A stretch of 64,000 nucleotides of DNA from Escherichia coli. GTDB taxonomy: Bacteria > Pseudomonadota > Gammaproteobacteria > Enterobacterales > Enterobacteriaceae. A program made the position numbers and the translations under genes. Shown one piece after another: positions 1-64,000 of this stretch; position 1 is the stretch's first letter; each line of letters begins with the position of its first letter. A model generated the notes under the pieces. It made no database searches and had not been told where the DNA came from. It saw only the letters and a list, made by a program, of their open reading frames with translations. The stretch lies in NCBI RefSeq assembly GCF_024298765.1, contig NZ_CP101210.1; one strand, 5' to 3'.

Positions 1-1404
1 GTGTCACTTTCGCTTTGGCAGCAGTGTCTTGCCCGATTGCAGGATGAGTTACCAGCCACAGAATTCAGTATGTGGATACGCCCATTGCAGGCGGAACTGA
101 GCGATAACACGCTGGCCCTGTACGCGCCAAACCGTTTTGTCCTCGATTGGGTACGGGACAAGTACCTTAATAATATCAATGGACTGCTAACCAGTTTCTG
201 CGGAGCGGATGCCCCACAGCTGCGTTTTGAAGTCGGCACCAAACCGGTGACGCAAACGCCACAAGCGGCAGTGACGAGCAACGTCGCGGCCCCTGCACAG
301 GTGGCGCAAACGCAGCCGCAACGTGCTGCGCCTTCTACGCGCTCAGGTTGGGATAACGTCCCGGCCCCGGCAGAACCGACCTATCGTTCTAACGTAAACG
401 TCAAACACACGTTTGATAACTTCGTTGAAGGTAAATCTAACCAACTGGCGCGCGCGGCGGCTCGCCAGGTGGCAGATAACCCTGGCGGTGCCTATAACCC
501 GTTGTTCCTTTATGGCGGCACGGGTCTGGGTAAAACTCACCTGCTGCATGCGGTGGGTAACGGCATTATGGCGCGCAAGCCGAATGCCAAAGTGGTTTAT
601 ATGCACTCCGAGCGCTTTGTTCAGGACATGGTTAAAGCCCTGCAAAACAACGCGATCGAAGAGTTTAAACGCTACTACCGTTCCGTAGATGCACTGCTGA
701 TCGACGATATTCAGTTTTTTGCTAATAAAGAACGATCTCAGGAAGAGTTTTTCCACACCTTCAACGCCCTGTTGGAAGGTAACCAGCAGATCATTCTCAC
801 CTCGGATCGCTATCCGAAAGAGATCAATGGCGTTGAGGATCGTCTGAAATCCCGCTTCGGTTGGGGACTGACTGTGGCGATCGAACCGCCAGAGTTAGAA
901 ACCCGCGTGGCGATCCTGATGAAAAAGGCCGACGAAAACGACATTCGTTTGCCGGGCGAAGTGGCGTTCTTTATCGCCAAGCGTCTACGATCTAACGTAC
1001 GTGAGCTGGAAGGCGCGCTGAACCGCGTTATTGCTAACGCCAACTTTACCGGACGGGCGATCACCATCGACTTCGTGCGTGAGGCGCTGCGCGACTTGCT
1101 GGCATTGCAGGAAAAACTGGTCACCATCGACAATATTCAGAAGACGGTGGCGGAGTACTACAAGATCAAAGTCGCGGATCTCCTTTCCAAGCGTCGATCC
1201 CGCTCGGTGGCACGTCCGCGCCAGATGGCGATGGCGCTGGCGAAAGAGCTGACTAACCACAGTCTGCCGGAGATTGGCGATGCGTTTGGTGGTCGTGACC
1301 ACACGACGGTGCTTCATGCCTGCCGGAAGATCGAGCAGTTGCGTGAAGAGAGCCACGATATCAAAGAAGATTTCTCTAATTTAATCAGAACATTGTCATC
1401 GTAA
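1..1404 (+). CDS. dnaA: chromosomal replication initiator protein DnaA
   Basis: 467-aa ORF with GTG start; AAA+ Walker [11 protein letters not shown]; followed directly by dnaN-recF-gyrB. Confidence 0.97.
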
Positions 1405-6045: not shown

Positions 6046-6147
6046 TGCCTGATGCGCTACGCTTATCAGGCCTACGAGACTCCTGCAATATATTGAATTT
6101 GCATGTTTTTGTAGGCCGGATAAGGCGTTCACGCCGCATCCGGCAAG
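6046..6147. repeat. REP/BIME palindromic elements downstream of gyrB
   Basis: gcctgatgcgctacgcttatcaggcctac and gtaggccggataaggcgttcacgccgcatccggcaag match REP consensus. Confidence 0.6.
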
Positions 6148-16203: not shown

Positions 16204-16306
16204 TTACATCGTAGCCGATGAGGACGCGCCTGATGGGTGTTCTGGCTACCTGACCTGTCCATTGTGGAAGGTCTTAGATTCTCGCTGATTTCAGGAGCTA
16301 TTGATT

Positions 16307-16720
16307 ATGCGTAACTTTGATTTATCCCCGCTTTACCGTTCTGCTATTGGATTTGACCGTTTGTTTAACCACTTAGAAAACAACCAGAGCCAGAGTAATG
16401 GCGGCTACCCTCCGTATAACGTTGAACTGGTAGACGAAAACCATTACCGCATTGCTATCGCTGTGGCTGGTTTTGCTGAGAGCGAACTGGAAATTACCGC
16501 CCAGGATAATCTGCTGGTGGTGAAAGGTGCTCACGCCGACGAACAAAAAGAGCGCACCTATCTGTACCAGGGCATCGCTGAACGCAACTTTGAACGCAAA
16601 TTCCAGTTAGCTGAGAACATTCATGTTCGTGGTGCTAACCTGGTAAATGGTTTGCTGTATATCGATCTCGAACGCGTGATTCCGGAAGCGAAAAAACCGC
16701 GCCGTATCGAAATCAACTAA
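16307..16720 (+). CDS. ibpA: small heat-shock protein IbpA
   Basis: 137 aa starting [20 protein letters not shown]; alpha-crystallin domain. Confidence 0.95.
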
Positions 16721-26513: not shown

Positions 26514-26618
26514 ATATTGGACAAAACGCAAACTGTGATCGATACTCAACTATGCACTAAATACGTCAAAATTCGTGCCGAAATTGCGCGTTCTGCGCGG
26601 AACACGTATACTTTCAGT

Positions 26619-26693
26619 GTTGACATAATACAGTGTGCTTTGCGGTTACCAGCCGCAGGCGACTGACGAAACCTCGCTCCGGCGGGGTTTTTT
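26619..26693 (+). ncRNA. istR: IstR-1 antitoxin sRNA
   Basis: sigma-70 promoter TTGCGC-17nt-TATACT upstream; gttgacataatacagtgtgct complementary to tisAB leader at 26361-26381; terminator hairpin ccucgcuccggcgggg plus U-run. Confidence 0.65.
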
Positions 26694-50455: not shown

Positions 50456-51679
50456 ATGGCTAAAAACAAAGGTATTTGTCGGAATAAAAAATGCAGTAAT
50501 CCTGTTTCAGAATTTGATGAGGCAAATGCCTTAAGGTTATGCGATGATCATTATAAGCTATGGAAGCGAAATAAAGAGAATCGTCGGGTCAGGAATATTT
50601 GTCGTATAATCAGTAAATATGACAAAAGTCTGGACCGGGAGATATTTTATGGAGTAAGAGATGCTGCAAAAAATAAAACGGGAAAGAGAATTATTGAGGA
50701 CGCAAAAATATTACATCAATGCCGTGCCTCAAAGCAAGTAAGAAAAAGTTTTCACAAGGGTGTGCTTCGGTCACGGGAATGGCTTAATACACAGGAGTTA
50801 CTGAGCAGAAAACATATATCTGTTACAGGTGAACTATTTAAATTTTACATAAAAGATATTATCAGATTATATTGCTATAAGTTTCTCTACAGCAGAGAAT
50901 ATCTTAATGAAAACGCATACAAAAAACGATATCAGAGTGATATTCACCCCAGAAAAGTTAATGTTCCGATACTGCAACTTGAAGTTGCATGGATAAATAA
51001 TAATTGCCGTTCAAGTGATTCAAGCACTGATATTATTATCCTTCCGAGGATGATAAGAAGAATGGTTGTATTTAATTATACGAAGATAAATAAACAATTA
51101 GAGAAATTGTTAGGGGGGATAGCACGAAAACAAACCTCAGAAAGGAATAAAGGCGGTCTCTATACCAGAATAAAAAAAGAAAGTGACTTTCTTTCTATGG
51201 ATAGATTTATGGTGGAAATAGAAAATATCATAAGGCCTGAAAGGTTTCCGACATCAATTTATCCAGTCTTTTCACATTCATTTATTGAACGAGAGCTTCC
51301 GCTACTGAATCTTGCTCGATCACAGTATAAAAGAGCAATAAGTAAAAAAGTGGCGAATTCAATTTTTTATACTTTGCAAAAAACTAACGTAGCATTATGG
51401 CTACATCTTGAAATGTTTGCTCTGGTGGCATTCATTAAACTGTATACAGGAAAAGGTTTTGAATTCATAAAAAACATGTGTGCATTTATCGATTATAATA
51501 ATGGGATAATAAAATCCACACATGAAGAACTACTGGGTGAAATTAAGCATAACATTCAGGTTAATTTGAAGGTGAACCCTGATAATTTTCCTGAGCTAAT
51601 AAATATATACAATTCATGTTTTAGTAAAAATATATTTTTATATGATATTAATGATGGTAATTTTAAATGGTGTTCATGA
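50456..51679 (+). CDS. hypothetical protein, Lys-rich with N-terminal Cys/His cluster (candidate novel defense/abortive-infection gene)
   Basis: 407-aa ORF; purine-rich RBS; very AT-rich codon usage; C8-x4-C13...C29-x2-H32; divergent from GTPase gene. Confidence 0.6.
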   Translation: MAKNKGICRNKKCSNPVSEFDEANALRLCDDHYKLWKRNKENRRVRNICRIISKYDKSLDREIFYGVRDAAKNKTGKRIIEDAKILHQCRASKQVRKSFHKGVLRSREWLNTQELLSRKHISVTGELFKFYIKDIIRLYCYKFLYSREYLNENAYKKRYQSDIHPRKVNVPILQLEVAWINNNCRSSDSSTDIIILPRMIRRMVVFNYTKINKQLEKLLGGIARKQTSERNKGGLYTRIKKESDFLSMDRFMVEIENIIRPERFPTSIYPVFSHSFIERELPLLNLARSQYKRAISKKVANSIFYTLQKTNVALWLHLEMFALVAFIKLYTGKGFEFIKNMCAFIDYNNGIIKSTHEELLGEIKHNIQVNLKVNPDNFPELINIYNSCFSKNIFLYDINDGNFKWCS

Positions 51680-52842: not shown

Positions 52843-53373
52843 TTAAGCTACATTGTTGTTATGACTGACAGGATTGTTTTCTTCCCCTGACTCTGGGCTT
52901 AACAGTCCCTGGCGTTGTAGATATTCACTGACTGACATTCCAGAACTACGGATCCTGTCAGAGATTTTACGAAATTGATCCTTCCATTCTGCAGGTAATT
53001 TCTTAATTTGTCTGACTTTACAGGCTACACTGTACGGGGTTCGCCCTAGTTTCTCTGCCAGCCAGAAAAGGTGTTTACCAATTTCATCGTCCGGTACATC
53101 CTCCAGAACATCTCGCAATAAACTCTCGTCTGCCTCATTCCATGCCACACCAGCATTTGGGAAACGAGGATCGATCTCTCTTTCCTTCTTCTCCTTCTTA
53201 CTTTGCTCTTTTCGGGATGATACAGATACGACAGAACGTTCTTTTACCGCTGTAATTGCCATAACTGCATTGAGCAGAGATCTGCGCTCCACATCGTTCA
53301 GCATTTTTCCTTCACAGATCAAATCATTCAGGATGTCAATGACTAGATTCAGACTTTCTTCTGTTAGCTTCAT
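52843..53373 (-). CDS. hypothetical protein with putative HTH
   Basis: 176-aa ORF; AAGG RBS 8 nt upstream; charged KE-rich linker; HTH-like LAEKLGRTPYSVACKVRQIKK. Confidence 0.55.
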   Translation of the reverse strand: MKLTEESLNLVIDILNDLICEGKMLNDVERRSLLNAVMAITAVKERSVVSVSSRKEQSKKEKKEREIDPRFPNAGVAWNEADESLLRDVLEDVPDDEIGKHLFWLAEKLGRTPYSVACKVRQIKKLPAEWKDQFRKISDRIRSSGMSVSEYLQRQGLLSPESGEENNPVSHNNNVA

Positions 53374-53987
53374 ATTTCAGACCTTGAAGTATGTAGATAA
53401 TCAGCACAATTACTAATGTGATAAATATCAGAAGATAATTTACAGGTAAACCGGAAAATACATCTGAAGAATAAAGGCCTCAGCTTAACGTTTCAGCCAG
53501 TTTGTGAGCTGATTGAGGTACGGCGATGACATTAACGGGAATTACTCCCCTATAGCTCTGAGCTTATTTTTCACCCTGGCAACATATGGTGGCTACTGCG
53601 CATGGTTTTGGAGTAGATATCTTACTACTCGTAGAATTGTGCTTACTGGTCAGGCCAGCGCACAGGCATTCCGTGCAATCAATAGAACACTGGTTTTTTA
53701 GTCTTCCGTTACCCATCAGGATGTTAGTGCAGATTCCGGTGTATTCGATCAGTTGTTCGGCGAATCAGCGATCGATCACGATGCGATTTCGTATGTTAGG
53801 GATGCTGGTATGATTACTCGCTGAAAAATAATGTGAAAAGGCAGTTTTTCTTTAGACATTTAGCTCATTCATGCTGTTGTTTTACGTTTTGCTGTCGTGT
53901 GCAGGATTATCTTTTCGTTACGGGACGATTCATTCCGTTTTAATCAGGAGCTATTGGCGTTGCTCATTGGTGGGATGCCGTAAAGTT

Positions 53988-54035
53988 TTACCGCGGCGAT
54001 TAATGATGTGAAGTCAATCCAAATCAACGGAGATC
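53988..54035. repeat. conserved leader element (copy 1) shared with 62702-62744
   Basis: ttaccgcggcgattaatgatgtgaagtcaatccaaatcaacggagatc versus ttaccgccttgcttaatgatgtgaactgaagtcaacggagatc. Confidence 0.55.
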
Positions 54036-54042
54036 TCTCATC

Positions 54043-54774
54043 ATGAATCAACCAATACACAATGATTACTGGTTATCCCGTTTTGAAAGTATTCTCAACA
54101 GTGCCCTGGTGCAACACCGTGCCGTCTCGTTAATCCGGGTGGATTTACGTTTCCCTGAGCATATGCCTGTCACCATCATGGATCCCGATCCGGATTCAGC
54201 GGTGATTTCTCGTTTTTTCGAATCCCTGAAAGCCAAAATTCAGGCTTACCAGCGGAAAAAACGACGTACCAACAAGCGTGTGCGTGCAACCACCCTGCAT
54301 TATTTCTGGTGTCGAGAGTTTGGCAAGGAAAAAGGCAGGAAACATTATCACGTGATATTACTGCTCAACAAAGATACCTGGTGCTCGCCAGGGGATTTCA
54401 CCGTTCCTTCTTCGCTGGCGACGCTGATCCAACTGGCATGGTGTAGCGCTCTGCATCTTGAGCCCTGGCAGGGTAATGGACTGGTTCATTTTTCCAGGCG
54501 GACGCCTTTCCGTAAACCGGCATCATCTGATGCTCGCCCTTCTTCCGATGATACGCCTTTGTCGGGTGGATGTTCTGAAACCAGGAAGGCTTCAGACAAA
54601 AAGCCGGGTGAAGCCGCTGTTCTCTGGATCAAGCGTGGTGATGTGGAAGCGATGCAGAAAGCCATGGAGAGAGCCCGTTATCTCGTGAAGTATGAGACGA
54701 AGCAGCATGACGGTTCTGGTCAACGTAATTATGGTTGCAGCCGTGGAGCGGGGCGTCTACTGGATGGCAGGTGA
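54043..54774 (+). CDS. inovirus Gp2-like replication-associated protein (YagK/YfjJ family)
   Basis: 243 aa; HYHVILLL motif region; family assignment from memory. Confidence 0.65.
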   Translation: MNQPIHNDYWLSRFESILNSALVQHRAVSLIRVDLRFPEHMPVTIMDPDPDSAVISRFFESLKAKIQAYQRKKRRTNKRVRATTLHYFWCREFGKEKGRKHYHVILLLNKDTWCSPGDFTVPSSLATLIQLAWCSALHLEPWQGNGLVHFSRRTPFRKPASSDARPSSDDTPLSGGCSETRKASDKKPGEAAVLWIKRGDVEAMQKAMERARYLVKYETKQHDGSGQRNYGCSRGAGRLLDGR

Positions 54775-54884
54775 ACCCTGTAAAACGGCATCCGGTGCCA
54801 GAGTATATGTCACAGTAAGGTCGTTGGCTGACGCCCTTAGCTCGTTTTCTGAAAAAGTTTTTCTGAAGTAATGTGGATTTGCCC

Positions 54885-55790
54885 CTATATTTCCAGACAT
54901 CTGTTATCACTTAACCCATTACAAGCCCGCTGCCGCAGATATTCCCGTGGCGAGCGATAACCCAGCGCACTATGCGGATGCCATTCGTTATAATGCTCGA
55001 ACGCCTCTGCAAGGTTCTTTGCTGCCGTTAACCCGTCTGGTTTGGGCATGATACTGATGTAGTCACGCTTTATCGTTTTCACGAAGCTCTCTGCGATTCC
55101 GTTACTCTCCGGACTCCGCACCGCCGTGTTCTTCGGTTCAAGTCCCAACATCCGGGCGAACTGGCGTGTTTCATTAGCCCGGTAGCATGAACCATTATCC
55201 GTCAGCCACTCCACTGGAGACGACGGAAGATCGTTGCCGAAGCGGCGTTCCACCGCTCCCAGCATGACGTCCTGTACTGTTTCACTGTTGAAGCCGCCGG
55301 TAGTGACCGCCCAGTGCAGTGCCTCACGATCACAGCAGTCCAGCGCGAACGTGACACGCAGTCTCTCTCCGTTATCACAGCAGAACTCGAACCCGTCAGA
55401 GCACCATCGCTGATTGCTTTCTTTCACGGCCACTCTGCCTGTATGTGCCCGTTTCGATGGCGGTACAGCAGGTTTTCGCTCAAGCAACAGCGCATTCTGG
55501 CGCATGATCCGGTAAACACGTTTGGCATTGATCGCAGGCATACCATCAAGTTCGGCCTGTCTGCGAAGCAGCACCCATACCCGACGATAACCATATGTGG
55601 GCAGCTCTCCGATAACATGGTGTATACGGAGAAGCACATCCGTATCATCAGTGTGACGGCTGCGGCGACCATCTTTCCAGTCATCGGTTCGTCTGAGAAT
55701 GACGTGCAACTGCGCACGCGACACCCGGAGACAACGGCTGACTAAGCTTACTCCCCATCCCCGGGCAATAAGGGCGCGTGCGCTATCCAC
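54885..55790 (-). CDS. insD: IS2 transposase InsD (OrfB)
   Basis: 301 aa [34 protein letters not shown]...; DDE integrase core. Confidence 0.92.
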
Positions 55791-56113
55791 TTTTTTGCAC
55801 GCCCATATTCAACGGCTTCTTTAAGGAGTTCATTTTCCATCGTTTTTTTGCCGAGCAGGCGCTGGAGTTCTTTAATCTGCTTCATGGCAGCAGCAAGTTC
55901 AGAGGCAGGAACGACCTGTTCTCCTGCGGCCACAGCAGTAAGACTTCCCTCCTGGTATTGCTTGCGCCAGAGAAATAACTGGCTGGCTGCCACACCGTGT
56001 TGCCGGGCAACAAGGGAGACCGTCATTCCCGGTTCAAAACTCTGCTGAACAATAGCGATCTTTTCCTGTGTAGTACGCCGTCTGCGTTTCTCCGGTCCTA
56101 AGACATCAATCAT
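55748..56113 (-). CDS. insC: IS2 InsC (OrfA)
   Basis: 121 aa from [29 protein letters not shown]. Confidence 0.9.
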
Positions 56114-56261
56114 CTGCTCTCCAATGACTAGTCTAAAAACTAGTATTAAGACTATCACTTAAATAAGTGATATTGGTTGTCTGGAGATTCAGGGGGGCCA
56201 GTCTACTGAATGAGCGAAATGTGATTTACCTTCTTTTCTGTTCATTGTAAATTCCCTCTTT

Positions 56262-56306: not shown

Positions 56307-58355
56307 ATGAAGAACAAATATATCATTGCTCCGGGCATTGCCGTGATGTGTTCTGCAGTTATATCATCAGGTTATGCCAGTTCTGATAAAAAAGAAGATA
56401 CGCTTGTTGTTACTGCCTCCGGGTTCACTCAGCAGCTCAGAAATGCCCCGGCCAGTGTCTCAGTCATTACTTCAGAACAACTGCAAAAAAAACCGGTTTC
56501 AGATCTGGTCGATGCAGTAAAAGATGTTGAAGGGATTAGTATCACTGGTGGGAATGAAAAACCGGATATCAGTATACGTGGTCTAAGTGGCGATTACACG
56601 CTGATTCTGGTCGATGGACGACGTCAGAGCGGTCGGGAATCCAGACCAAACGGCAGCGGCGGTTTTGAAGCCGGATTTATCCCTCCTGTGGAAGCAATTG
56701 AACGCATTGAAGTGATCCGTGGCCCTATGTCTTCCCTGTATGGTTCTGATGCCATCGGAGGGGTCATTAATATCATAACCAAACCAGTTAATAACCAAAC
56801 ATGGGATGGCGTACTTGGACTTGGGGGGATTATTCAGGAACATGGGAAATTTGGTAACTCAACCACAAATGACTTCTATCTGTCAGGCCCATTGATTAAG
56901 GATAAACTTGGTCTTCAGCTATATGGAGGAATGAACTATCGCAAGGAAGATAGTATCTCTCAGGGAACACCGGCAAAAGATAATAAGAATATAACGGCAA
57001 CGCTCCAGTTTACTCCGACTGAAAGCCAGAAGTTTGTTTTTGAATATGGAAAAAATAACCAGGTGCATACATTAACACCTGGTGAGTCTCTCGATGCCTG
57101 GACTATGCGGGGAAATCTTAAACAACCAAACAGTAAAAGAGAAACGCATAATTCACGTAGTCACTGGGTAGCAGCATGGAATGCCCAGGGCGAAATACTG
57201 CATCCTGAAATTGCTGTTTATCAGGAGAAAGTTATTCGTGAGATTAAATCAGGTAAAAAAGATAAATATAATCATTGGGATCTTAATTACGAGTCAAGAA
57301 AACCGGAAATAACCAACACAATCATAGATGCAAAAGTGACGGCATTTCTGCCGGAAAATGTACTGACCATCGGAGGTCAATTTCAGCATGCAGAGCTCCG
57401 TGATGACTCAGCCACGGGTAAAAAAACGACAGAAACACAGTCTGTTTCAATTAAACAGAAAGCTGTTTTTATAGAAAATGAATATGCAGCAACGGATTCT
57501 CTCGCCCTGACTGGAGGACTGCGTCTCGATAATCATGAAATCTATGGCAGTTACTGGAATCCAAGATTGTACGCTGTTTATAACCTGACCGATAATCTCA
57601 CACTCAAAGGGGGGATCGCAAAAGCATTTCGGGCTCCTTCAATTCGTGAGGTGAGTCCTGGATTTGGAACACTGACGCAGGGTGGTGCCTCTATTATGTA
57701 TGGAAACAGGGACCTGAAACCGGAGACCAGTGTAACCGAAGAGATCGGTATTATTTATAGTAATGATAGTGGTTTTTCGGCGAGCGCGACGCTGTTTAAT
57801 ACTGATTTTAAAAATAAGTTGACCAGTTACGATATAGGTACAAAAGATCCAGTCACCGGGTTAAACACTTTTATTTATGATAATGTAGGTGAGGCAAATA
57901 TCAGAGGGGTGGAGCTTGCAACTCAGATTCCTGTGTATGATAAATGGCATGTATCTGCAAACTATACATTTACTGACTCTCGTCGAAAAAGTGATGACGA
58001 AAGTCTCAATGGCAAGTCGCTGAAAGGGGAACCTCTGGAAAGAACTCCCAGACATGCAGCCAATGCAAAACTGGAATGGGATTACACTCAGGATATTACA
58101 TTTTATTCATCTCTGAATTATACGGGAAAACAAATCTGGGCAGCACAAAGAAATGGTGCTAAGGTTCCCCGCGTTCGTAATGGATTCACATCTATGGATA
58201 TTGGTCTAAATTACCAGATTCTGCCAGACACGCTGATTAATTTTGCCGTTCTTAACGTCACAGACAGAAAGAGCGAGGATATCGATACCATTGATGGTAA
58301 CTGGCAGGTCGATGAAGGACGCCGTTATTGGGCTAATGTAAGAGTATCCTTCTGA
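56307..58355 (+). CDS. ireA: TonB-dependent outer-membrane siderophore receptor (IreA-like)
   Basis: 682 aa; signal peptide; TonB box DTLVVTAS; plug domain; C-terminal beta-barrel ending in F; symbol from memory of IreA length and N-terminus. Confidence 0.7.
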   Translation: MKNKYIIAPGIAVMCSAVISSGYASSDKKEDTLVVTASGFTQQLRNAPASVSVITSEQLQKKPVSDLVDAVKDVEGISITGGNEKPDISIRGLSGDYTLILVDGRRQSGRESRPNGSGGFEAGFIPPVEAIERIEVIRGPMSSLYGSDAIGGVINIITKPVNNQTWDGVLGLGGIIQEHGKFGNSTTNDFYLSGPLIKDKLGLQLYGGMNYRKEDSISQGTPAKDNKNITATLQFTPTESQKFVFEYGKNNQVHTLTPGESLDAWTMRGNLKQPNSKRETHNSRSHWVAAWNAQGEILHPEIAVYQEKVIREIKSGKKDKYNHWDLNYESRKPEITNTIIDAKVTAFLPENVLTIGGQFQHAELRDDSATGKKTTETQSVSIKQKAVFIENEYAATDSLALTGGLRLDNHEIYGSYWNPRLYAVYNLTDNLTLKGGIAKAFRAPSIREVSPGFGTLTQGGASIMYGNRDLKPETSVTEEIGIIYSNDSGFSASATLFNTDFKNKLTSYDIGTKDPVTGLNTFIYDNVGEANIRGVELATQIPVYDKWHVSANYTFTDSRRKSDDESLNGKSLKGEPLERTPRHAANAKLEWDYTQDITFYSSLNYTGKQIWAAQRNGAKVPRVRNGFTSMDIGLNYQILPDTLINFAVLNVTDRKSEDIDTIDGNWQVDEGRRYWANVRVSF

Positions 58356-58393: not shown

Positions 58394-59736
58394 ACCAGTG
58401 TAGTAATCAGTAATGTCAGTTTCCAGGTTGTAATGCTTTTAATCTTGATTAAAATAATCTTAATAATTTAAACTTGTTAAATATCGATGATTTTAATTTG
58501 AGAGCGTTCAGAATTCTGTGTCACGTTAAAAATTCTACAGCGTCATCACATTATTCAGCCGCCCTTCAAAATAAATGGCTAACTGCGACAATGTCAAATT
58601 CCAGCTTTGGATGGGCATTGTCCATTTCTCCTGTGCGTTCATCAGTCCCAGATAAAGTAGCTTCAACAGGCTGTTTTCATTCGGGAAAGCACCTTTAGGT
58701 TTTGGTCAGTTTCCTGAACTGGCGGTGGACTGATTCTATCGCGTTGGTTGTGTAGATCACCTTGCGGATATTCGCCGGATAGCGGAAGTACGCTGACAGA
58801 TTTTCCCTCTTGCGGCGCCAGGACTGGAGCACCACCGGATATTGCTGCCCCCGTTTCGCTTCCAGCTCATCCAGCGCCGTTTCCGACACCGCACGATACA
58901 CTGGCTTCAGGTCGGCCATGAACGCTTTATGGTGTTTTGACGCCACATATTTAATCGAGTTACGTATCTGGTGAATGACGCACAACTGTACCTCTGTCTG
59001 CGGATAAATGCTGTTTATCGCTTCAGGGAAGCCGGTCAGCCCATCCACGCAGGCAATCAGAATGTCTTCAACGCCACGGTTTTGCAGATCACTTAATACT
59101 GACAGCCAGAAGTTAGCGCCTTCGCTTTCCGACAAATACAGGCCCAGGACTTCTTTTTTGCCTTCCAGATTCAGCGCCAGTACGGTATAAACTGCCTTGC
59201 TCTGATAACACCCATCTTCGCGGATTTTATAGTGAATGGCGTCCAGCCAGACGAAGGGATAAACCTTTTCCAGCGGGCGCTGCTGCCACTGTTTTAACTC
59301 AGGAATGACTTTATCGGTAACCGCACTGATGGTAGCCGTGGAAACACTGAAGGCATATAAATCTTCGATCTCCCGGCTGATATCCTGGTAGCTCATCCCC
59401 AGCGCGAACAGGCGAATGATCTTGCGCTCGAGCTCATCAGACAGCGTGGTCTGGTGCTTCTTCACCAGTTGGGGTTCAAAATAACCATTACGATCACGTG
59501 GAGTTGCCAGCTCAAAGCTGCCAGTCGGGGCTTTAATGGTCTTTTTTCCGGAACCATTTTTACGATTGACTTCAAAATCCTGAGCCAGATGGGAGTCGAG
59601 TTCAGCGGCCAGAGCGGTTTCTGTTAACTGTTTGATTAATGGCGTTAGGATACCATCCTTGCCGGTTAATGCTTGGCCGGACTGAACCGCCCCGGAAATC
59701 CTGGAGACTAAACTCCCTGAGAAAGAGGTAAACAGG

Positions 59737-60063
59737 ATGACTAAAAATACTCGTTTTTCCCCCGAAGTCCGTCAACGGGCAGTTCGTATGGTTCTGGAAA
59801 GTCAGGGCGAATATGACTCACAATGGGCGGCAATTTGTTCCATTGCTCCAAAGACTGGCTGTACGCCGGAGACTCTGCGTGTCTGGGTTCGCCAGTATGA
59901 GCGGGATACCGGGGGCGGAGATGGAGGGCTCACCAGTGCTGAACGTCAGCGTCTGAAAGAGCTGGAACGTGAAAATCGTGAACTGCGCCGCAGCAACAAT
60001 ATCCTTCGCCAGGCTTCCGCTTATTTTGCGAAGGCGGAGTTCGACCGCCTCTGGAAAAAGTGA
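59737..60063 (+). CDS. IS629 OrfA
   Basis: 108 aa [39 protein letters not shown]... Confidence 0.88.
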
Positions 60064-60950
60064 TGGCACTGCTGGATAAGCTGCGTGAGCAGTACGGGGT
60101 CAGACCGGTATGCAGTGAACTGCATATTGCCCCGTCAACGTATTACCACTGTCAGCAACAGCGACATCATCCTGATAAACGCAGTGCACATGCACAGCGC
60201 GATGACTGGCTGAAGAGAGAGATACAGCGCGTATACGATGAAAATCATCAGTGTACCGTGTGCGTAAAGTCTGGCGCCAGTTGTTACGGGAAGGAATCAG
60301 GATGGCCAGATGTACAGTGGTGCGCCTCATGGCGGTTATGGGACTTGCCGGTGTTCTCCGGGGTAAAAAGGTCCGCACTACCGTCAGCCGGAAAACCGTT
60401 GCCGCAGGTGACCGCGTAAACCGTCAGTTCGTGGCAGAACGTCCTGACCAGCTGTGGGTGGCTGATTTTACTTACGTCAGCACATGGCAGGGCTTCGTCT
60501 ATAGTGGCGTTCATCATTGATGTATTTGCCGGATATATCGTGGGGTGGTGGGTCTCATCGTCTATGGAAACGACATTCGTGCTGGATGCGCTGGAGCAGG
60601 CGTTGTGGGCCCGCCGTCCGTCCGGCACCATCCATCACAGCGATAAAGGCTCTCAGTATGTGTCACTGGCCTATATGGAGCGATTAAAAGAAGCAAAACT
60701 GCTGGCATCAACAGGGAGTACAGGCGACTCGTATGACAACGCGATGGCGGAGAGCATCAATGGTCTTTACAAAGCGGAGGTAATACACCGTAAGAGCTGG
60801 AAAAACCGTGCAGAAGTGGAACTGGCCACACTCACGTGGGTGGACTGGTATAACAATCGACGATTGCTGGGAAGGCTGGGCCATACTCCTCCGGCAGAAG
60901 CAGAAAAAGCTTATTATGCTTCCATCGGAAACAATGATCTGGCAGCCTGA
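60060..60950 (+). pseudogene. IS629 OrfB transposase, frameshifted
   Basis: DDE transposase sequence split over three overlapping frames (60060-60419, 60251-60520, 60504-60950). Confidence 0.8.
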
Positions 60951-61097
60951 GTTCACAGATAAAACACTCTCCAGGAAACCCGGGGCGGTTCAGGACTGGA
61001 GTGCCTTAAGCGCTTTATCGAAATCGAAGGGTTGGGACATGTGTCATTCCTTTTTGGTTGTATATTACTGGAATGACACAGAATTTCTAACACTCCC

Positions 61098-62085
61098 TTT
61101 AATTTAGGTTTATTACTATTATTATACTTACTCTCTTTTTTACATGACCTCAATCTTTACGATTATATTCACTCTATCTTTACACATTCCATTACTCTTA
61201 TCCTCATCCAATTATATTCATGTCCTTCTCTAATCTTCCTTGTCACCATTATCATAATATCCACTTCTTCCCTCATTCAATCATAATTACTGTAATTCAT
61301 ACGTTACTCAGATAAGTTATTCTCTACAGCTACGCTATTGTTGATATCCATCTGTTCTCATTTTCAGTGAAACAGTAATTGATTTTAATTTATCCATCAT
61401 GAACTGTATTTGCTTAACAATGATTGTTTATCTGAAGTGTTTTAACTATTCTGGTTGGAAACAATTTCTCTGTCATCAAAGATTAACTGAATGTTTACTC
61501 TTTGATAAGGTATCCATGGTTCCGTCATGTTTAACAGCGCAGGATAAACAACAGAATTAACAGAGTGAATTTCTGATTATATTTGTTGCCGGTTGTATTG
61601 TTTAAGGTACTGGGTGAAAATTATTCATCCATTGTATGTTGTCTTATGCTATCGTGTGTCGTTAACGTTCATATCCTGGAAAACAGATTGAATAAGCGCG
61701 TGTGAGTTTATTGTGGTGACCTTATAAACGTTTTTTCAGACTCACTGAGAGCAAATTTACAAATCATGAGCTTATAGTTGTAATATGTTTCCTAACCGCC
61801 TGGCAGCGGGATTACAGTTCGTATTTTTCTGTATTTCACTGTGTTGTATTGAATCTGTATTTTCTTCGCACCTCGTTTATCTCATCTCTATAGACAATGC
61901 CATCAGATAACTCATACCCTTCAGCACAACGCTGTGTGTCGTTAATAATCCGTCGTATCCATTCTGTTACAGCATGCCTGATAAATACCATCTGTAAGTT
62001 ATTACCGTTTTAGATCTGATTATGAGCGAAAGCATTAATTCGCTCACAGAGCTTAAAACATCATTAACTTTCAGGAGTCATCAAC
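61098..62085. other. about 1 kb ORF-free AT-rich spacer with G-depleted tract
   Basis: No ORF of 60 aa or more on either strand; 61108-61300 is pyrimidine-rich on the plus strand with about six G. Confidence 0.6.
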
Positions 62086-62652
62086 ATGCCTAAATCTTAC
62101 ACACCAAACTGGTTTTTTACCGCTTTACTTGACAATCACATCAATCAAATGATGGCACGCTATTCCTGCCTGCGGGCCTTACGGATGGATTTCTTCTACA
62201 GGAAGGATACGCCTGATTTCTTACAACCTGATCATCGTTGGCTTGAATTACAACTGCGTATGCTGCTGGAGCAGGTTGAACAGTTTGAAAATATGGTTGG
62301 CTTCTTCTGGGTGATTGAATGGACGGTTGATCATGGTTTTCATGCGCATGTGGTCTTCTGGCTCGATCGTCAGAGGGTTAAAAAAATATATCCCTTTGCG
62401 GAGCGGATTACGGAATGCTGGCGGTCTATTACGCATAACAGCGGTTCGGCACACCGCTGTACATATCAGCCGCATTATACATACAACATCAACATTCCTG
62501 TGCGCCACAACGATCCTGAAAGCATCGATAATATTCGCGGTGCCCTGCATTATCTGGCAAAAGAAGAGCAAAAAGACGGGCTGTGTGCCTACGGCTGCAA
62601 TGAAGTTCCTGAACGTCCTGCTGCAGGGCGTCCTCGTAAGCCTCACTTCTGA
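62086..62652 (+). CDS. inovirus Gp2-like protein (YagK/YfjJ family paralogue)
   Basis: 188 aa; FHAHVVFWLDRQ motif region analogous to HYHVILLLNKD of the 54043 gene. Confidence 0.6.
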   Translation: MPKSYTPNWFFTALLDNHINQMMARYSCLRALRMDFFYRKDTPDFLQPDHRWLELQLRMLLEQVEQFENMVGFFWVIEWTVDHGFHAHVVFWLDRQRVKKIYPFAERITECWRSITHNSGSAHRCTYQPHYTYNINIPVRHNDPESIDNIRGALHYLAKEEQKDGLCAYGCNEVPERPAAGRPRKPHF

Positions 62653-62701
62653 AGCTTAAATCCTGAGCTTCCTGTCCTGGAAACATTCCGTCGGTAAAAC
62701 C

Positions 62702-62744
62702 TTACCGCCTTGCTTAATGATGTGAACTGAAGTCAACGGAGATC
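62702..62744. repeat. conserved leader element (copy 2)
   Basis: See copy 1 at 53988-54035. Confidence 0.55.
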
Positions 62745-62909
62745 ATTCACTCTGAACCACATCCGGTGTTCTGTCCCTTGTCGGTGACCTGATCTTCCCG
62801 TTCTGCCCCGGTTCTTCACTTATTCCATCAACCCCATCCGCAAACCATAACACGTCAGCTTATTCACGGGCAGGACGCATTGTGGGCTGCGCATAACGGA
62901 GCATATCTT

Positions 62910-63482
62910 ATGAATGCTATCCCTTATTTCGACTATAGCCTGGCCCCCTTCTGGCCATCTTATCAGAACAAAATCATCGGCGTTCTCAACCGTGTGTTGC
63001 GCGAGCAGTCCTGCTCCCGAATACGGCGGATCCTGCTTCGTCTGCCGGGGGAACATGGCAACATCTTCAGCGACAGAAAAACCTGGTTCGGTATGGCCTT
63101 TATCGAAACCGTCAGTGCGCTGATGAATGCAACACCCGGACGTGACCTCTGCTGGCTCCTGACACGTCATCCTGAAAAACCGGAATACCACGTGGTGCTG
63201 TGCGTCAGACAGGAGTATTTCGACGGCCCTGAACTGGATCGGCTGATTCTGGATGCCTGGAGCAACGTACTGGGCTTCGCATCACCGGGTGAAGCAGCAC
63301 CGTACCAGAAGCAGATCACCCGGGATGTGGTGCTGGACAGTTGTTCACCGGACTGCGAAGAGAGACTCAAAGAGCTGATATGGGCGTTCAGTGATTTCGC
63401 CCGCGATCGTCGTGGTGTGCGCGATCCGGAAGCCCGTTACCTCGCCGGTAATCCCTGGTATCCCGTAGCAGGCCAGCTCTGA
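62910..63482 (+). CDS. hypothetical protein, possible third Gp2-like paralogue
   Basis: 190 aa from MNAIPYFDYS; GGAG RBS; EYHVVLCVRQEYF motif. Confidence 0.5.
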   Translation: MNAIPYFDYSLAPFWPSYQNKIIGVLNRVLREQSCSRIRRILLRLPGEHGNIFSDRKTWFGMAFIETVSALMNATPGRDLCWLLTRHPEKPEYHVVLCVRQEYFDGPELDRLILDAWSNVLGFASPGEAAPYQKQITRDVVLDSCSPDCEERLKELIWAFSDFARDRRGVRDPEARYLAGNPWYPVAGQL

Positions 63483-63550
63483 AAGCTCAGCTCAGCAGAT
63501 TCACCCGCATTTGCCCAACATTCATAAATCTCACAGAGGACATTCTGACC

Positions 63551-63787
63551 ATGTTGACCTCAATGACAGGTCACGACAGCGTATTGCTGCGTGCCGACGA
63601 TCCCCTGATCGACATGAACTACATCACCAGCTTCACTGGTATGACCGACAAATGGTTTTACAAGCTGATCAGTGAAGGCCATTTCCCTAAACCCATCAAA
63701 CTGGGGCGCAGCAGCCGCTGGTACAAAAGTGAAGTGGAGCAGTGGATGCAGCATCGAATCGAGGCATCACGAGGGGCAGCAGCATGA
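63551..63787 (+). CDS. AlpA-family prophage regulatory protein (excisionase-like HTH)
   Basis: 78 aa; ...ITSFTGMTDKWFYKLISEGHFPKPIKLGRSSRWYKSEVEQWM resembles AlpA/Xis-type HTH. Confidence 0.7.
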   Translation: MLTSMTGHDSVLLRADDPLIDMNYITSFTGMTDKWFYKLISEGHFPKPIKLGRSSRWYKSEVEQWMQHRIEASRGAAA

Positions 63788-64000
63788 AACGTGTTGTAAT
63801 GCCGGTACGCTGGCAATGTGCAAAATACCAGCGTTGGTATTGTGGAAATCAGCCCTGTCCCTGGTGCTGGCGACATTTACGTTCATCTTCTTGCAGACAT
63901 TCTCCAGTCAGCCAGCAGGTTGTAGCTCTTCCTGACTGATTCGTCATTCCATTCTTATTGATTATAACTGGCATTACACCGGTGCTGGCGTGCTTTCCTG

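What the first reader, a model, noticed from the sequence alone, without database searches (positions are those of the whole stretch)
53988..54035. Conserved leader shared by two Gp2-like paralogues 8.7 kb apart suggests a composite or tandem island
The same element (ttaccgc...ttaatgatgtgaa...caacggagatc) lies immediately upstream of the Gp2-like gene at 54043 and again at 62702-62744, between the other two Gp2-like genes. Three Gp2-family paralogues plus two copies of this leader, with IS elements in between, suggest two related integrative elements fused or duplicated, then reshuffled by insertion sequences.
Basis: seen in the sequence. Interest (0 to 1): 0.4.

Follow-up and report, generated by a model that had tools for sequence, protein, structure and literature searches.

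The report
Conserved leader of island Rep-like genes
A 60-80 base non-coding sequence really is repeated next to two Rep-like (Gp2/YagK) genes of an E. coli genomic island; it is the conserved upstream control region of this gene family, and its two copies are far apart here only because insertion sequences placed 7.8 kb, including the ireA iron-receptor gene, between them.

Summary
The repeat is real. Window 53979-54050 and 62694-62759 align with one 5-nt indel, well above chance, sharing three blocks: GTAAA-N3-TTACCG, TTAATGATGTGAA and TCAACGGAGATC.

The window is an E. coli chromosome carrying a P4/CP4-like island. In ordinary versions of this island both copies occur in one compact module, about 0.93 kb apart. 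They flank the 243-aa Gp2 gene: el_up, Gp2-243, el_down, hyp190, AlpA-like. A third, more diverged leader precedes the 188-aa gene.

So the pair of leaders is not the mark of an island fusion. Still, the window is a mosaic. A 243-type left arm and a 188-type right arm meet across IS2, ireA, an IS256 remnant and an IS3-family element. IS2 has no target duplication.

Both cores are better conserved than the non-coding DNA beside them. Homologous leaders in Brenneria, Providencia and Morganellaceae keep the same block order and spacing to the ATG, with no conserved RNA fold.

Best reading: a DNA-level cis-regulatory leader (operator, promoter and RBS) of the Gp2-(hyp190)-AlpA operon, confidence about 0.5. 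Main rival: the recognition site of the HUH Rep-like protein itself.

The finding is ordinary to moderately interesting, and the function is untested.

The parts
53972..54042 (+). el_up, the leader directly upstream of the 243-aa Gp2 gene. Box A is GTAAAGTTTTACCG (53980-53993), box B is TTAATGATGTGAA (54000-54012), and box C is TCAACGGAGATC (54024-54035), which contains the GGAG ribosome-binding site.
   Evidence: nhmmer E = 1e-21. The core 53980-54040 is 93-99% identical across 8 other E. coli loci, against 65-83% for the intergenic DNA just upstream.
54043..54774 (+). Gp2-243, a YagK/YfjJ ('inovirus Gp2') family protein with an HUH Rep-like nuclease fold. It keeps HYH (HUH) and RYLVKYETK, and carries a ~35-aa low-confidence insertion at residues 153-186.
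54874..56205 (-). IS2, at the left junction of the intercalated segment, with no target-site duplication.
   Evidence: Terminal inverted repeats (pair I2), PGAP annotation, flanks TAATG and CTGAA. Homology to compact islands stops at 54855-54873.
56307..58355 (+). ireA, a TonB-dependent siderophore receptor. This is cargo inside the intercalated segment.
   Evidence: 682-aa ORF; PGAP annotation: IreA.
58695..59465 (-). Remnant of an IS256-family transposase gene, frameshifted.
59663..61012 (+). IS3-family element with a frameshifted transposase, at the right junction of the intercalated segment.
   Evidence: 45-nt terminal inverted repeats (pair I1). Rfam ALIL pseudoknot at 60018-60134.. Collinearity with 188-type islands begins at 61098.
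61991..62085 (+). up188, a third and diverged leader upstream of the 188-aa gene. It has box A' GTAAGTTATTACCG (61994-62007), a box-B-like TGATTATGAGCGAA, an inserted stable hairpin (62007-62059), then GGAG and the ATG.
   Evidence: the same motif sits 92 nt upstream of the gene in L004, L005 and L007. (RNA fold z = -4.3). (98% identity among four loci). (alignment with the other leaders).
62086..62652 (+). Gp2-188, a YagK/YfjJ-domain protein that keeps HAH and YLAKEEQK. In other islands it is the alternative occupant of the slot upstream of el_down.
   Evidence: PF23343 E = 2.8e-5 and PF11726 E = 4.8e-5, both below cut-off. PGAP names it YagK/YfjJ domain-containing. for context.
62667..62750 (+). 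el_down, the second leader copy. Box A is GTAAAACCTTACCG (62694-62707), box B 62714-62726 and box C 62733-62744. About 27 further conserved bases lie upstream of box A, including GGAAACATTCC. The position matching the start codon is CTG, and no ORF follows.
   Evidence: The left flank comes in two unrelated types and the right flank in two types, while the core is kept. 62680-62739 is 92-95% identical across 10 loci, against 60% at 62760-62799.
62751..62909 (+). Variable spacer between el_down and the 190-aa gene. It ends with a second AACGGAG (62895-62901), 8 nt before the ATG.
   Evidence: 60-88% identity, with indels; sequence.
62910..63482 (+). hyp190, an E. coli-restricted protein with no Pfam family. 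It is a remote, degenerate Gp2-like paralogue: HUH has become E-Y-H and YxxK has become YLAG.
   Evidence: no significant Pfam hit; 62 homologues; every named one is E. coli; hhalign against the Gp2 profile: probability 62%, E = 7.8e-5, 140 columns. The AlphaFold2 model is too poor to use.
63551..63787 (+). AlpA-family helix-turn-helix protein, the last gene of the Gp2-(hyp190)-AlpA unit within the window.
   Evidence: Pfam PF05930 E = 2e-10. The Gp2-AlpA pairing is conserved in other genera.

Best explanation
The element is the conserved 5' control region ('leader') of the Gp2/YagK-type Rep-like genes that sit beside an AlpA-family regulator gene on P4/CP4-like genomic islands. It most likely acts as DNA.

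- Box A is a short palindrome (GGTAAA-N2-4-TTTACC). It overlaps a T-rich TTTAC block and would be an operator for a dimeric island-encoded DNA-binding protein.
- Box B (TGATGTGAA, which corresponds to TATGAA across the family) lies 14 nt further on. Together with box A it would form a non-consensus, probably activator-dependent promoter.
- Box C carries the ribosome-binding site, 8-9 nt before the start codon.

In E. coli the leader exists in three diverged versions. el_up precedes Gp2-243. up188 precedes Gp2-188. el_down heads the hyp190-AlpA part of the operon, where it would act as an internal control site.

Shown: the sequence, its position and orientation, its conservation, its family-wide architecture and the absence of a conserved RNA fold. 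Inferred: promoter or operator activity and the identity of the binding protein.

The 8.7-kb separation in this window is secondary. An IS-bounded segment carrying ireA and a second Gp2 allele lies between two copies that are normally 0.93 kb apart.
For: 1. Position and orientation. Every copy lies on the coding strand upstream of a Gp2-type gene. In el_up, box C supplies GGAG 8 nt before the ATG.
2. Family-wide architecture. Leaders of Gp2 genes only 36-49% identical in protein, from Brenneria, Providencia, Morganellaceae and metagenomes, align with the same block order and spacing: TTTAC or TTAAC, 14 nt, TATGAA or TGTGAA, about 14 nt, GGAG, about 8 nt, ATG. The Gp2-AlpA synteny is also kept.
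3. Selection. The cores are 92-99% identical across E. coli islands, while neighbouring non-coding DNA is 60-83% and the coding sequences about 90%. el_down keeps its core between two unrelated left flanks and two right-flank types.
4. Each copy type keeps its own diagnostic differences across strains, so the copies are not being homogenised with one another.
5. No RNA explanation. There is no Rfam hit. There is no consensus structure across genera: -0.04 kcal/mol.
6. Palindrome. The arms of box A are conserved and its centre varies (AGTT, AACC, AAAC), as expected for a dimer binding site. The exact motif occurs only at the three Gp2-associated sites in 64 kb.
7. Restricted distribution that tracks the genes: 1904 of 5426 E. 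coli genomes have the element, 1879 the Gp2-243 region and 1876 the el_down region. It is absent from the phage collection and, as an exact pattern, from the GTDB species representatives.
Against: - The strict sigma-70 scan finds nothing at either copy. A PWM scan gives only weak and mutually inconsistent candidates.
- The 14-nt spacing of the two conserved hexamers is too short for a standard -35/-10 pair.
- Box C is conserved in el_down even though no start codon or ORF follows it. A role purely as a ribosome-binding site cannot explain that.
- el_down lies 165 nt from hyp190, which has its own AACGGAG ribosome-binding site.
- No transcription-start or binding data were available, so function is inferred.
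Confidence: 0.5

Rival explanations
1. The element is the cognate DNA site of the HUH Rep-like protein itself, serving as an origin-like nick or binding site. On this reading Gp2-243, flanked by two directly repeated sites, forms a small Rep-plus-two-origins cassette. The protein would bind or nick there, for island replication after excision, for release of a 0.93-kb circle, or merely for autoregulation.
For: - It keeps HUH and a Y-x-x-x-Y/K motif.
- From general knowledge, rolling-circle Rep genes commonly lie next to their origin and autoregulate through it.
- The element co-evolves with the gene in all genera sampled.
- Box C is conserved in el_down with no ORF to serve.
- In compact islands the two copies bracket the gene as direct repeats.
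Against: - There is no shared stable hairpin to present a nick site. As ssDNA, el_up folds no better than shuffles (z = +0.45) and el_down only modestly (z about -2).
- No iterons are visible.
- Flanking repeats occur only in the E. coli 243-type. They are absent around Gp2-188, yfjJ, yagK and the Brenneria and metagenomic homologues.
- No 'solo' recombined or released product was found. A chimeric el_up/el_down junction query reached 80% coverage in 0 of 5426 genomes.
- The cassette never appears in a new left-hand context among the loci sampled.
- The resemblance of some copies (CTTGAT-TAAT) to the phiX/pC194 nick consensus is recalled from memory and is not conserved among copies.
Confidence: 0.2
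2. The element is mainly a recombination boundary. It would be a short conserved 'linker' at which related islands exchange modules by homologous recombination, conserved because recombinants are repeatedly selected rather than because it regulates anything.
For: - el_down sits exactly where 188-type and 243-type islands converge.
- Its right flank also exists in two forms.
- E. coli tRNA-associated islands are known to be mosaics of modules (PMC11537424).
Against: - The convergence point (62667) lies about 27 nt upstream of the shared boxes, not at them.
- About 70 nt is short for efficient RecA-dependent exchange.
- The hypothesis does not explain the family-wide spacing to the ATG in other genera.
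- It does not explain the conservation of el_up, whose right flank is simply its own gene.
Confidence: 0.1
3. The element is a structured RNA leader, or the target of an sRNA or RNA chaperone. For example, a hairpin might hide the ribosome-binding site and start codon, perhaps acted on by the island's ProQ/FinO-family protein.
For: - el_up RNA can pair AUGAUGUGA with UCUCAUCAU across the ribosome-binding site and the AUG (z = -2.3).
- up188 has a strong hairpin (z = -4.3), and its two natural C-to-T changes keep G-U pairs.
- A ProQ/FinO gene lies about 0.7 kb beyond the window.
Against: - No Rfam family matches.
- The el_up hairpin has no counterpart in el_down. Its 3' partner differs in sequence and varies between islands.
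- There is no consensus structure across genera.
Confidence: 0.08
4. The element is a functionless relic. el_down would be only the decayed 5' end of a lost or displaced Gp2 gene copy (ATG changed to CTG), and the similarity would reflect a recent copying event.
For: - The similarity runs 7 nt past the start codon into what would be coding sequence.
- el_down has lost the start codon, and no ORF follows.
Against: - The el_down core is 92-95% conserved, while the DNA immediately downstream has fallen to 60%.
- It is retained in every 188-type and nearly every 243-type island sampled.
- The associated proteins are only about 20% identical, so a neutral relic of a shared duplication should have vanished.
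Confidence: 0.07

Closest known systems
Upstream control regions of replication-initiator or regulator operons on P4-like satellites and CP4-type cryptic prophages (for example alpA-yfjI-yfjJ of CP4-57 and yagK of CP4-6 in E. coli K-12)
   Same: The island type and gene family are the same (YagK/YfjJ, AlpA, the GTPase-antirestriction-RadC-CbtA/CbeA module). The K-12 paralogues yfjJ and yagK also share a leader of their own (T(T)GATAGGTAWTATATA).
   Different: The K-12 leaders are unrelated in sequence to this element, and those genes are not flanked by repeats. I found no functional study of either leader.
AlpA binding element (ABE) promoters of Pseudomonas aeruginosa, where AlpA is loaded as a processive antiterminator (PMC7969949, PMC9371919)
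   Same: An AlpA-family gene is part of the unit. In the ABE model a short specific DNA element lies between poorly spaced promoter hexamers, which would fit a conserved block between box A and box B.
   Different: The ABE motif GGGACG-N5-GGTA is not present. No intrinsic terminator lies downstream of either copy. The E. coli island protein is only a family-level relative. Nothing was tested.
Double-strand origins of rolling-circle replicons, placed next to their HUH rep gene (phiX174/pC194-type, pMV158, parvovirus or AAV Rep-binding elements plus nick site)
   Same: An HUH-fold protein is encoded directly beside a conserved non-coding element that co-evolves with it.
   Different: There is no stable conserved hairpin, no iterons and no evidence of nicking or circles. 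Some paralogues next to the element have lost the catalytic HUH (hyp190).
IS-mediated mosaicism of E. coli tRNA-associated genomic islands (GI-pheV and GI-selC; PMC11537424, PMC6174562)
   Same: Modules are separated by IS elements, and ireA, pgt and fec cargo is shared with described islands. Junctions lie at IS ends, and IS2 has no target duplication.
   Different: None in kind. This window is a further example. The described work does not mention the Gp2 leader element.

Membership tests
YagK/YfjJ ('inovirus Gp2') HUH Rep-like protein family | Significant match to PF11726 or PF23343 above Pfam's cut-off | tested here: met
   Met for Gp2-243 only (PF11726 126 bits against 25.8; PF23343 37 against 27.8). 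Gp2-188 scores 23.8 and 24.8 bits, just below cut-off. hyp190 has no significant hit.
YagK/YfjJ ('inovirus Gp2') HUH Rep-like protein family | HUH metal-binding motif and a catalytic tyrosine motif (YxxK) | tested here: met
   Gp2-243 has HYH and RYLVKYETK. Gp2-188 has HAH and HYLAKEEQK. hyp190 has E-Y-H and ARYLAG, so the feature is not met for hyp190.
YagK/YfjJ ('inovirus Gp2') HUH Rep-like protein family | HUH endonuclease fold | tested here: met
Structured cis-regulatory RNA (riboswitch, thermometer or attenuator) or a known sRNA | Match to a curated covariance model | tested here: not met
   No Rfam family reaches its gathering score in the window at either copy. Only noise appears at E <= 5.
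Structured cis-regulatory RNA (riboswitch, thermometer or attenuator) or a known sRNA | Secondary structure conserved across homologues, with covariation | tested here: not met
   RNAalifold on 8 leaders from at least 5 lineages gives -0.04 kcal/mol and only a 5-pair trivial helix. The el_up hairpin is not reproduced in el_down.
Sigma-70 promoter | -35 and -10 hexamers close to consensus, with a 16-18 nt spacer | tested here: inconclusive
   The strict scan finds none at either copy. The PWM scan gives weak candidates: TTGCTC-15-TAAAGT (6.6 bits) and TTTACC-16-TGAAGT (3.0). Candidates are better in distant homologues: TTTACA-18-GACAAT (8.1) and TTGATT-17-TAAATT (11.1).
Sigma-70 promoter | An experimentally mapped transcription start | not testable with these tools
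   No transcription-start data could be mapped to this sequence.
Rolling-circle double-strand origin | Lies beside the cognate HUH rep gene | tested here: met
   el_up abuts Gp2-243. In compact islands el_down follows the gene within about 200 nt.
Rolling-circle double-strand origin | A stable hairpin or cruciform presenting the nick site, shared by all copies | tested here: not met
   ssDNA folds give el_up z = +0.45 and +0.36, and el_down z = -2.1 and -2.3. Only the 5-6 bp box A palindrome is shared.
Rolling-circle double-strand origin | Site-specific nicking or covalent attachment by the Rep protein | not testable with these tools
   This needs biochemistry.
Tandem or composite genomic island | Two sets of homologous backbone modules within one insertion | tested here: met
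   Two alternative occupants of the Gp2 slot are both present. In the identical strain-104 island there is a second hyp182-ProQ/FinO module at 86% identity, about 27 kb to the right and outside the window.
Tandem or composite genomic island | A second integrase, or an internal att repeat, marking a tandem insertion | tested here: not met
   Across L001 and L045 (about 86 kb of island) only one tyrosine recombinase is annotated, at the far end. ARAGORN finds no tRNA gene in the window. att repeats were not searched for.
Composite transposon carrying ireA | Matching IS copies on both sides, with a target-site duplication | tested here: not met
   The flanking IS elements belong to different families: IS2 on the left, an IS256 remnant and an IS3-family element on the right. 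The IS2 flanks are TAATG and CTGAA.

The most novel reading that the evidence does not exclude
The three-box element is the specific DNA target of the YagK/YfjJ HUH proteins. On this reading el_up-Gp2-243-el_down is a minimal Rep-plus-two-origins cassette. The Rep-like protein would nick at one copy and rejoin at the other, either releasing a 0.93-kb circle or priming rolling-circle replication of the excised island. That would give this widespread 'y-gene' family of P4-like islands its first mechanistic role.
Probability: 0.08. Interest if true: 0.7.

Novelty: new member of a known kind. Interest (0 to 1): 0.3.

Why it matters
YagK/YfjJ ('inovirus Gp2') proteins are core genes of tRNA-associated islands in E. 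coli and of related islands in other genera, including Pseudomonas (bioRxiv 10.1101/2024.08.29.610337). I found no assigned function for them in the papers searched.

A short, strongly conserved, family-specific DNA element beside these genes gives a concrete handle for experiments. It is the obvious probe for binding, nicking and reporter assays that would show whether these proteins are regulators or active rolling-circle nucleases.

The element is present in about 35% of complete E. coli genomes, typically in two copies. The finding about island structure is ordinary: it is one more IS-built mosaic island carrying ireA.

Tried and rejected
- Rfam at gathering thresholds and at E <= 5 found nothing at either copy.
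- Strict sigma-70 promoter and terminator scans found nothing at either copy. A home-made PWM scan gave weak, inconsistent candidates.
- The K-12 paralogues yfjJ and yagK lack the element and have a different shared leader.
- The IMG/VR pattern scan returned 12 loci. One was genuine (L010, presumably E. coli) and the rest were chance matches, most of them one recurring, apparently coding sequence.
- The pattern scan of GTDB species representatives returned only a chance hit in Paenibacillus. In this exact form the element is not in the species representatives.
- The phage collection gave no match. The plasmid collection gave 5 E. coli records, one of which is really a chromosome.
- I looked for flanking repeats around other Gp2 genes (Gp2-188, yfjJ, yagK, Brenneria, metagenomic). 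None exceeded shuffles.
- I looked for a 'solo' hybrid element, the expected product of recombination or replicative release between the two copies. None was found in 5426 genomes.
- I tested a shared RNA or ssDNA hairpin. It was rejected.
- I looked for a conserved small ORF after el_down. The frames differ between islands and the CTG is not conserved.
- The Pseudomonas AlpA binding element GGGACG-N5-GGTA is not present.
- The PDB sequence search with the Gp2 profile found nothing below E = 0.8.
- The AlphaFold2 model of hyp190 was too poor (pLDDT 46) for a fold search.
- I looked for a DUF3987/YfjI remnant in window 60901-62100. None was found.

Full report
**What the window is.** Rfam marks AsdA (the dnaA antisense RNA), the ROSE_2 thermometer (which I attribute to ibpA), and istR. 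The window is 100% identical over both queried stretches (53800-54800 and 62000-63500) to E. coli chromosomes such as strain 104, NZ_CP029164. After yicL comes a P4/CP4-like island. Its minus strand carries the CbtA/CbeA, RadC, antirestriction, DUF932 and GTPase module. Its plus strand carries the genes discussed here.

- Window 53979-54050 aligns with 62694-62759 with one 5-nt indel. The score is 42, against 23 +/- 2 (maximum 31) in shuffles.
- The two longest exact blocks, TTAATGATGTGAA and TCAACGGAGATC, each occur exactly twice in 64 kb, in the same order and on the same strand.
- No similarity extends beyond about 70 nt.
- Copy 1 (el_up) runs into the ATG of a 243-aa gene.
- Copy 2 (el_down) lies between the 188-aa gene and a 190-aa gene. 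It has CTG where copy 1 has ATG.
GTAANNNNTTACCG occurs exactly at only three sites in the window: 53980, 61994 and 62694. The middle one lies 92 nt upstream of the 188-aa gene, as it does in L004, L005 and L007.

**The proteins.**
- Gp2-243 is a clear YagK/YfjJ ('inovirus Gp2') protein (PF11726, E = 1.8e-36; PF23343 REP_ORF2-G2P). It keeps HYH and RYLVKYETK.
- Gp2-188 falls just below Pfam's cut-offs but keeps HAH and YLAK.
- The 190-aa protein (hyp190) has no Pfam family, and all its named homologues are from E. coli.
- A profile-profile comparison aligns hyp190 collinearly with the Gp2 family over 140 columns (probability 62%, E = 7.8e-5). RVDLR corresponds to RILLRLP and HYHV to EYHV. It is therefore a remote paralogue that has probably lost catalysis.
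- Pairwise identities among the three are about 20%. These are old paralogues, not recent duplicates.

**What single islands look like.** This decides the interpretation.
- In L006, L008, L009, L023 and L031-L037 the same two copies lie 930-936 nt apart and directly flank the 243-aa gene.
- The order is hyp407, el_up, Gp2-243, el_down, hyp190, AlpA-like, hyp182, then, where the locus extends that far, ProQ/FinO on the other strand.
- In a second island type (L004, L005, L007) the 188-aa gene occupies the same slot, upstream of el_down-hyp190-AlpA.
- BLAST shows that window 53866-54855/54873 and 62667-63872 are 17-40 nt apart in the compact islands. It also shows that the window is collinear with 188-type islands from 61098-61831 rightwards.
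- So the window has a 243-type left arm and a 188-type right arm.
- Between them lie IS2 (54874-56205), ireA, an IS256 remnant and an IS3-family element (59663-61012).
- The left junction falls exactly at the IS2 end and the right one within about 90 nt of the IS3-family end. IS2 has no target duplication: TAATG versus CTGAA.
- The compact Gp2-243/el_down junction is present in at least 527 complete genomes. The window's Gp2-243/IS2 junction is present in 106.
- In strain 104 the island runs about 86 kb to a single integrase. It contains a second hyp182-ProQ module at 86% identity.
It fits what is known of E. coli tRNA-associated islands (PMC11537424).
- The leader pair is not evidence for that history, and nothing here is a recent duplication.

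**Is the element constrained?**
- Across 8-10 other E. coli loci the cores are 93-99% identical (53980-54040) and 92-95% identical (62680-62739).
- Adjacent non-coding DNA is 60-83% identical, and the coding sequences are about 90%.
- el_down keeps its core between two unrelated left flanks (the end of the 188-aa gene, or the tail of the 243-aa gene) and two right-flank types.
- Each copy type keeps its own diagnostic differences. Conservation therefore reflects selection across strains, not homogenisation between copies.
- The element occurs in 1904 of 5426 complete E. coli genomes, with a median of two places per positive genome. It tracks the Gp2-243 and hyp190 regions.
- It is absent from the phage collection and rare on plasmids.
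- As an exact pattern it is absent from the GTDB species representatives.

**What kind of element is it?**
- Gp2 genes 36-49% identical in protein, from Brenneria, Providencia, Morganellaceae and metagenomes, sit in the same synteny: a divergent GTPase module in most of the loci, then leader, Gp2 and AlpA.
- Their leaders align with the E. coli copies in block order and spacing: T-rich TTTAC or TTAAC, 14 nt, TATGAA or TGTGAA, about 14 nt, GGAG, about 8 nt, ATG.
- No secondary structure is conserved (-0.04 kcal/mol), and no Rfam family matches.
- The hairpin that could mask the ribosome-binding site in el_up has no counterpart in el_down.
- As ssDNA, el_up folds no better than shuffled sequence.
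- In E. coli, box A is a palindrome with conserved arms and a variable centre (GGTAAA-N2-4-TTTACC).
- Fixed primary-sequence blocks at a fixed distance from the start codon, plus a dimer-type palindrome and no RNA structure, point to a DNA-level operator, promoter and RBS region.

**Caveats to that reading.**
- No consensus sigma-70 promoter is present.
- The 14-nt spacing of the two conserved hexamers is too short for a standard -35/-10 pair.
- Box C stays conserved in el_down although no ORF follows it.
- These points keep alive the alternative that the boxes are recognised by the HUH protein itself, as an autoregulatory site or an origin-like site.
- Against an active origin there is no shared hairpin and there are no iterons.
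- Other Gp2 genes have no flanking repeats.
- No recombined 'solo' copy exists in 5426 genomes.
- There is no sign that the cassette moves on its own.

**Comparison with known systems.**
- The closest analogues are the uncharacterised upstream regions of the CP4-57 and CP4-6 paralogues. Their leader sequence is different.
- A second analogue is the AlpA-binding-element promoter class of Pseudomonas. Its motif is absent here.
- A third is the rolling-circle origin placed beside a rep gene. The fold and the adjacency match, but the origin hallmarks do not.
- I found no paper describing this element or assigning a function to YagK/YfjJ proteins. A preprint lists Gp2-like proteins among the likely core functions of a widespread class of islands.

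**Verdict.**
- The element is best read as the conserved cis-regulatory leader of the Gp2-(hyp190)-AlpA unit, with confidence about 0.5.
- It is a new member of a known kind, and interest is 0.3.
- The most novel reading still open is a cognate nick or origin site for an HUH Rep-like protein, forming a Rep-plus-two-origins cassette. I give it about 8%.

Noticed in passing
window 54008-54046: A 12-codon GTG-initiated upstream ORF (VKSIQINGDLSS*) lies inside el_up, and its TGA overlaps the Gp2-243 start codon (ATGA). In the metagenomic homologue L024 an ATG-initiated ORF (MDNHKPEII*) ends directly before the Gp2 ATG. In L027, L043 and L044 the same stretch is in frame with the gene. No ribosome-binding site precedes the GTG. 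It could reflect translational coupling or be an accident.
   Followed up: partly
window 62007-62059: The leader of the 188-aa gene contains an inserted, very stable stem-loop (RNA fold z = -4.3 for 61975-62095) that the other leaders lack. The only two changes seen in its inner 3' arm in other islands are C-to-T, which keep G-U pairs.
   Followed up: partly
window 62895-62901: AACGGAG, the core of box C, recurs 8 nt before the hyp190 start codon. The variable 150-nt spacer is therefore bracketed by two AACGGAG copies. Either an insertion split the leader or the ribosome-binding sites are similar by chance.
   Followed up: no
window 54869-54873 and 56206-56210: IS2 (54874-56205) is flanked by TAATG and CTGAA, so there is no 5-bp target duplication. 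It marks a rearrangement junction rather than a simple insertion.
   Followed up: yes
L045 9006-10466 (strain 104, about 27 kb right of the window end): A second hyp182-ProQ/FinO module, both genes frameshifted, is 86% identical to the one just beyond the window (L001 26916-28322). It follows pgtABCP and precedes PTS and transketolase genes. From memory that cargo resembles the selC island AGI-3 or the tkt1 island, but I did not test this.
   Followed up: partly
window 54499-54600 (Gp2-243 residues 153-186): The 243-aa allele carries a Ser/Pro/Asp-rich insertion of about 35 aa that relatives in other genera lack, and it is modelled with pLDDT below 50. Several E. coli alleles (214 aa: P0061, P0083) are frameshifted at this point.
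   Followed up: partly
window 50456-51679 and 52843-53373: Two conserved island ORFs (407 aa on the plus strand, 176 aa on the minus strand) lie between the GTPase gene and el_up. Neither has a Pfam family. The 407-aa protein is Lys/Asn-rich and its gene looks AT-rich.
   Followed up: no
window 53374-53971: About 600 nt of non-coding DNA upstream of el_up contains conserved patches (for example TCTTTTCGTT and TTAATCAGGAG) interrupted by indels between islands. The real promoter of Gp2-243 could lie here.
   Followed up: no
window 511-591, 6068-6110, 16241-16313, 26564-26693, 60018-60134: Rfam matches above gathering score are AsdA, ES036, ROSE_2, istR and the ALIL frameshift pseudoknot of the IS3-family element. 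All are expected for this chromosomal region. ARAGORN finds no tRNA in the window, and no tRNA is annotated in the next 81 kb up to the far-end integrase.
   Followed up: no
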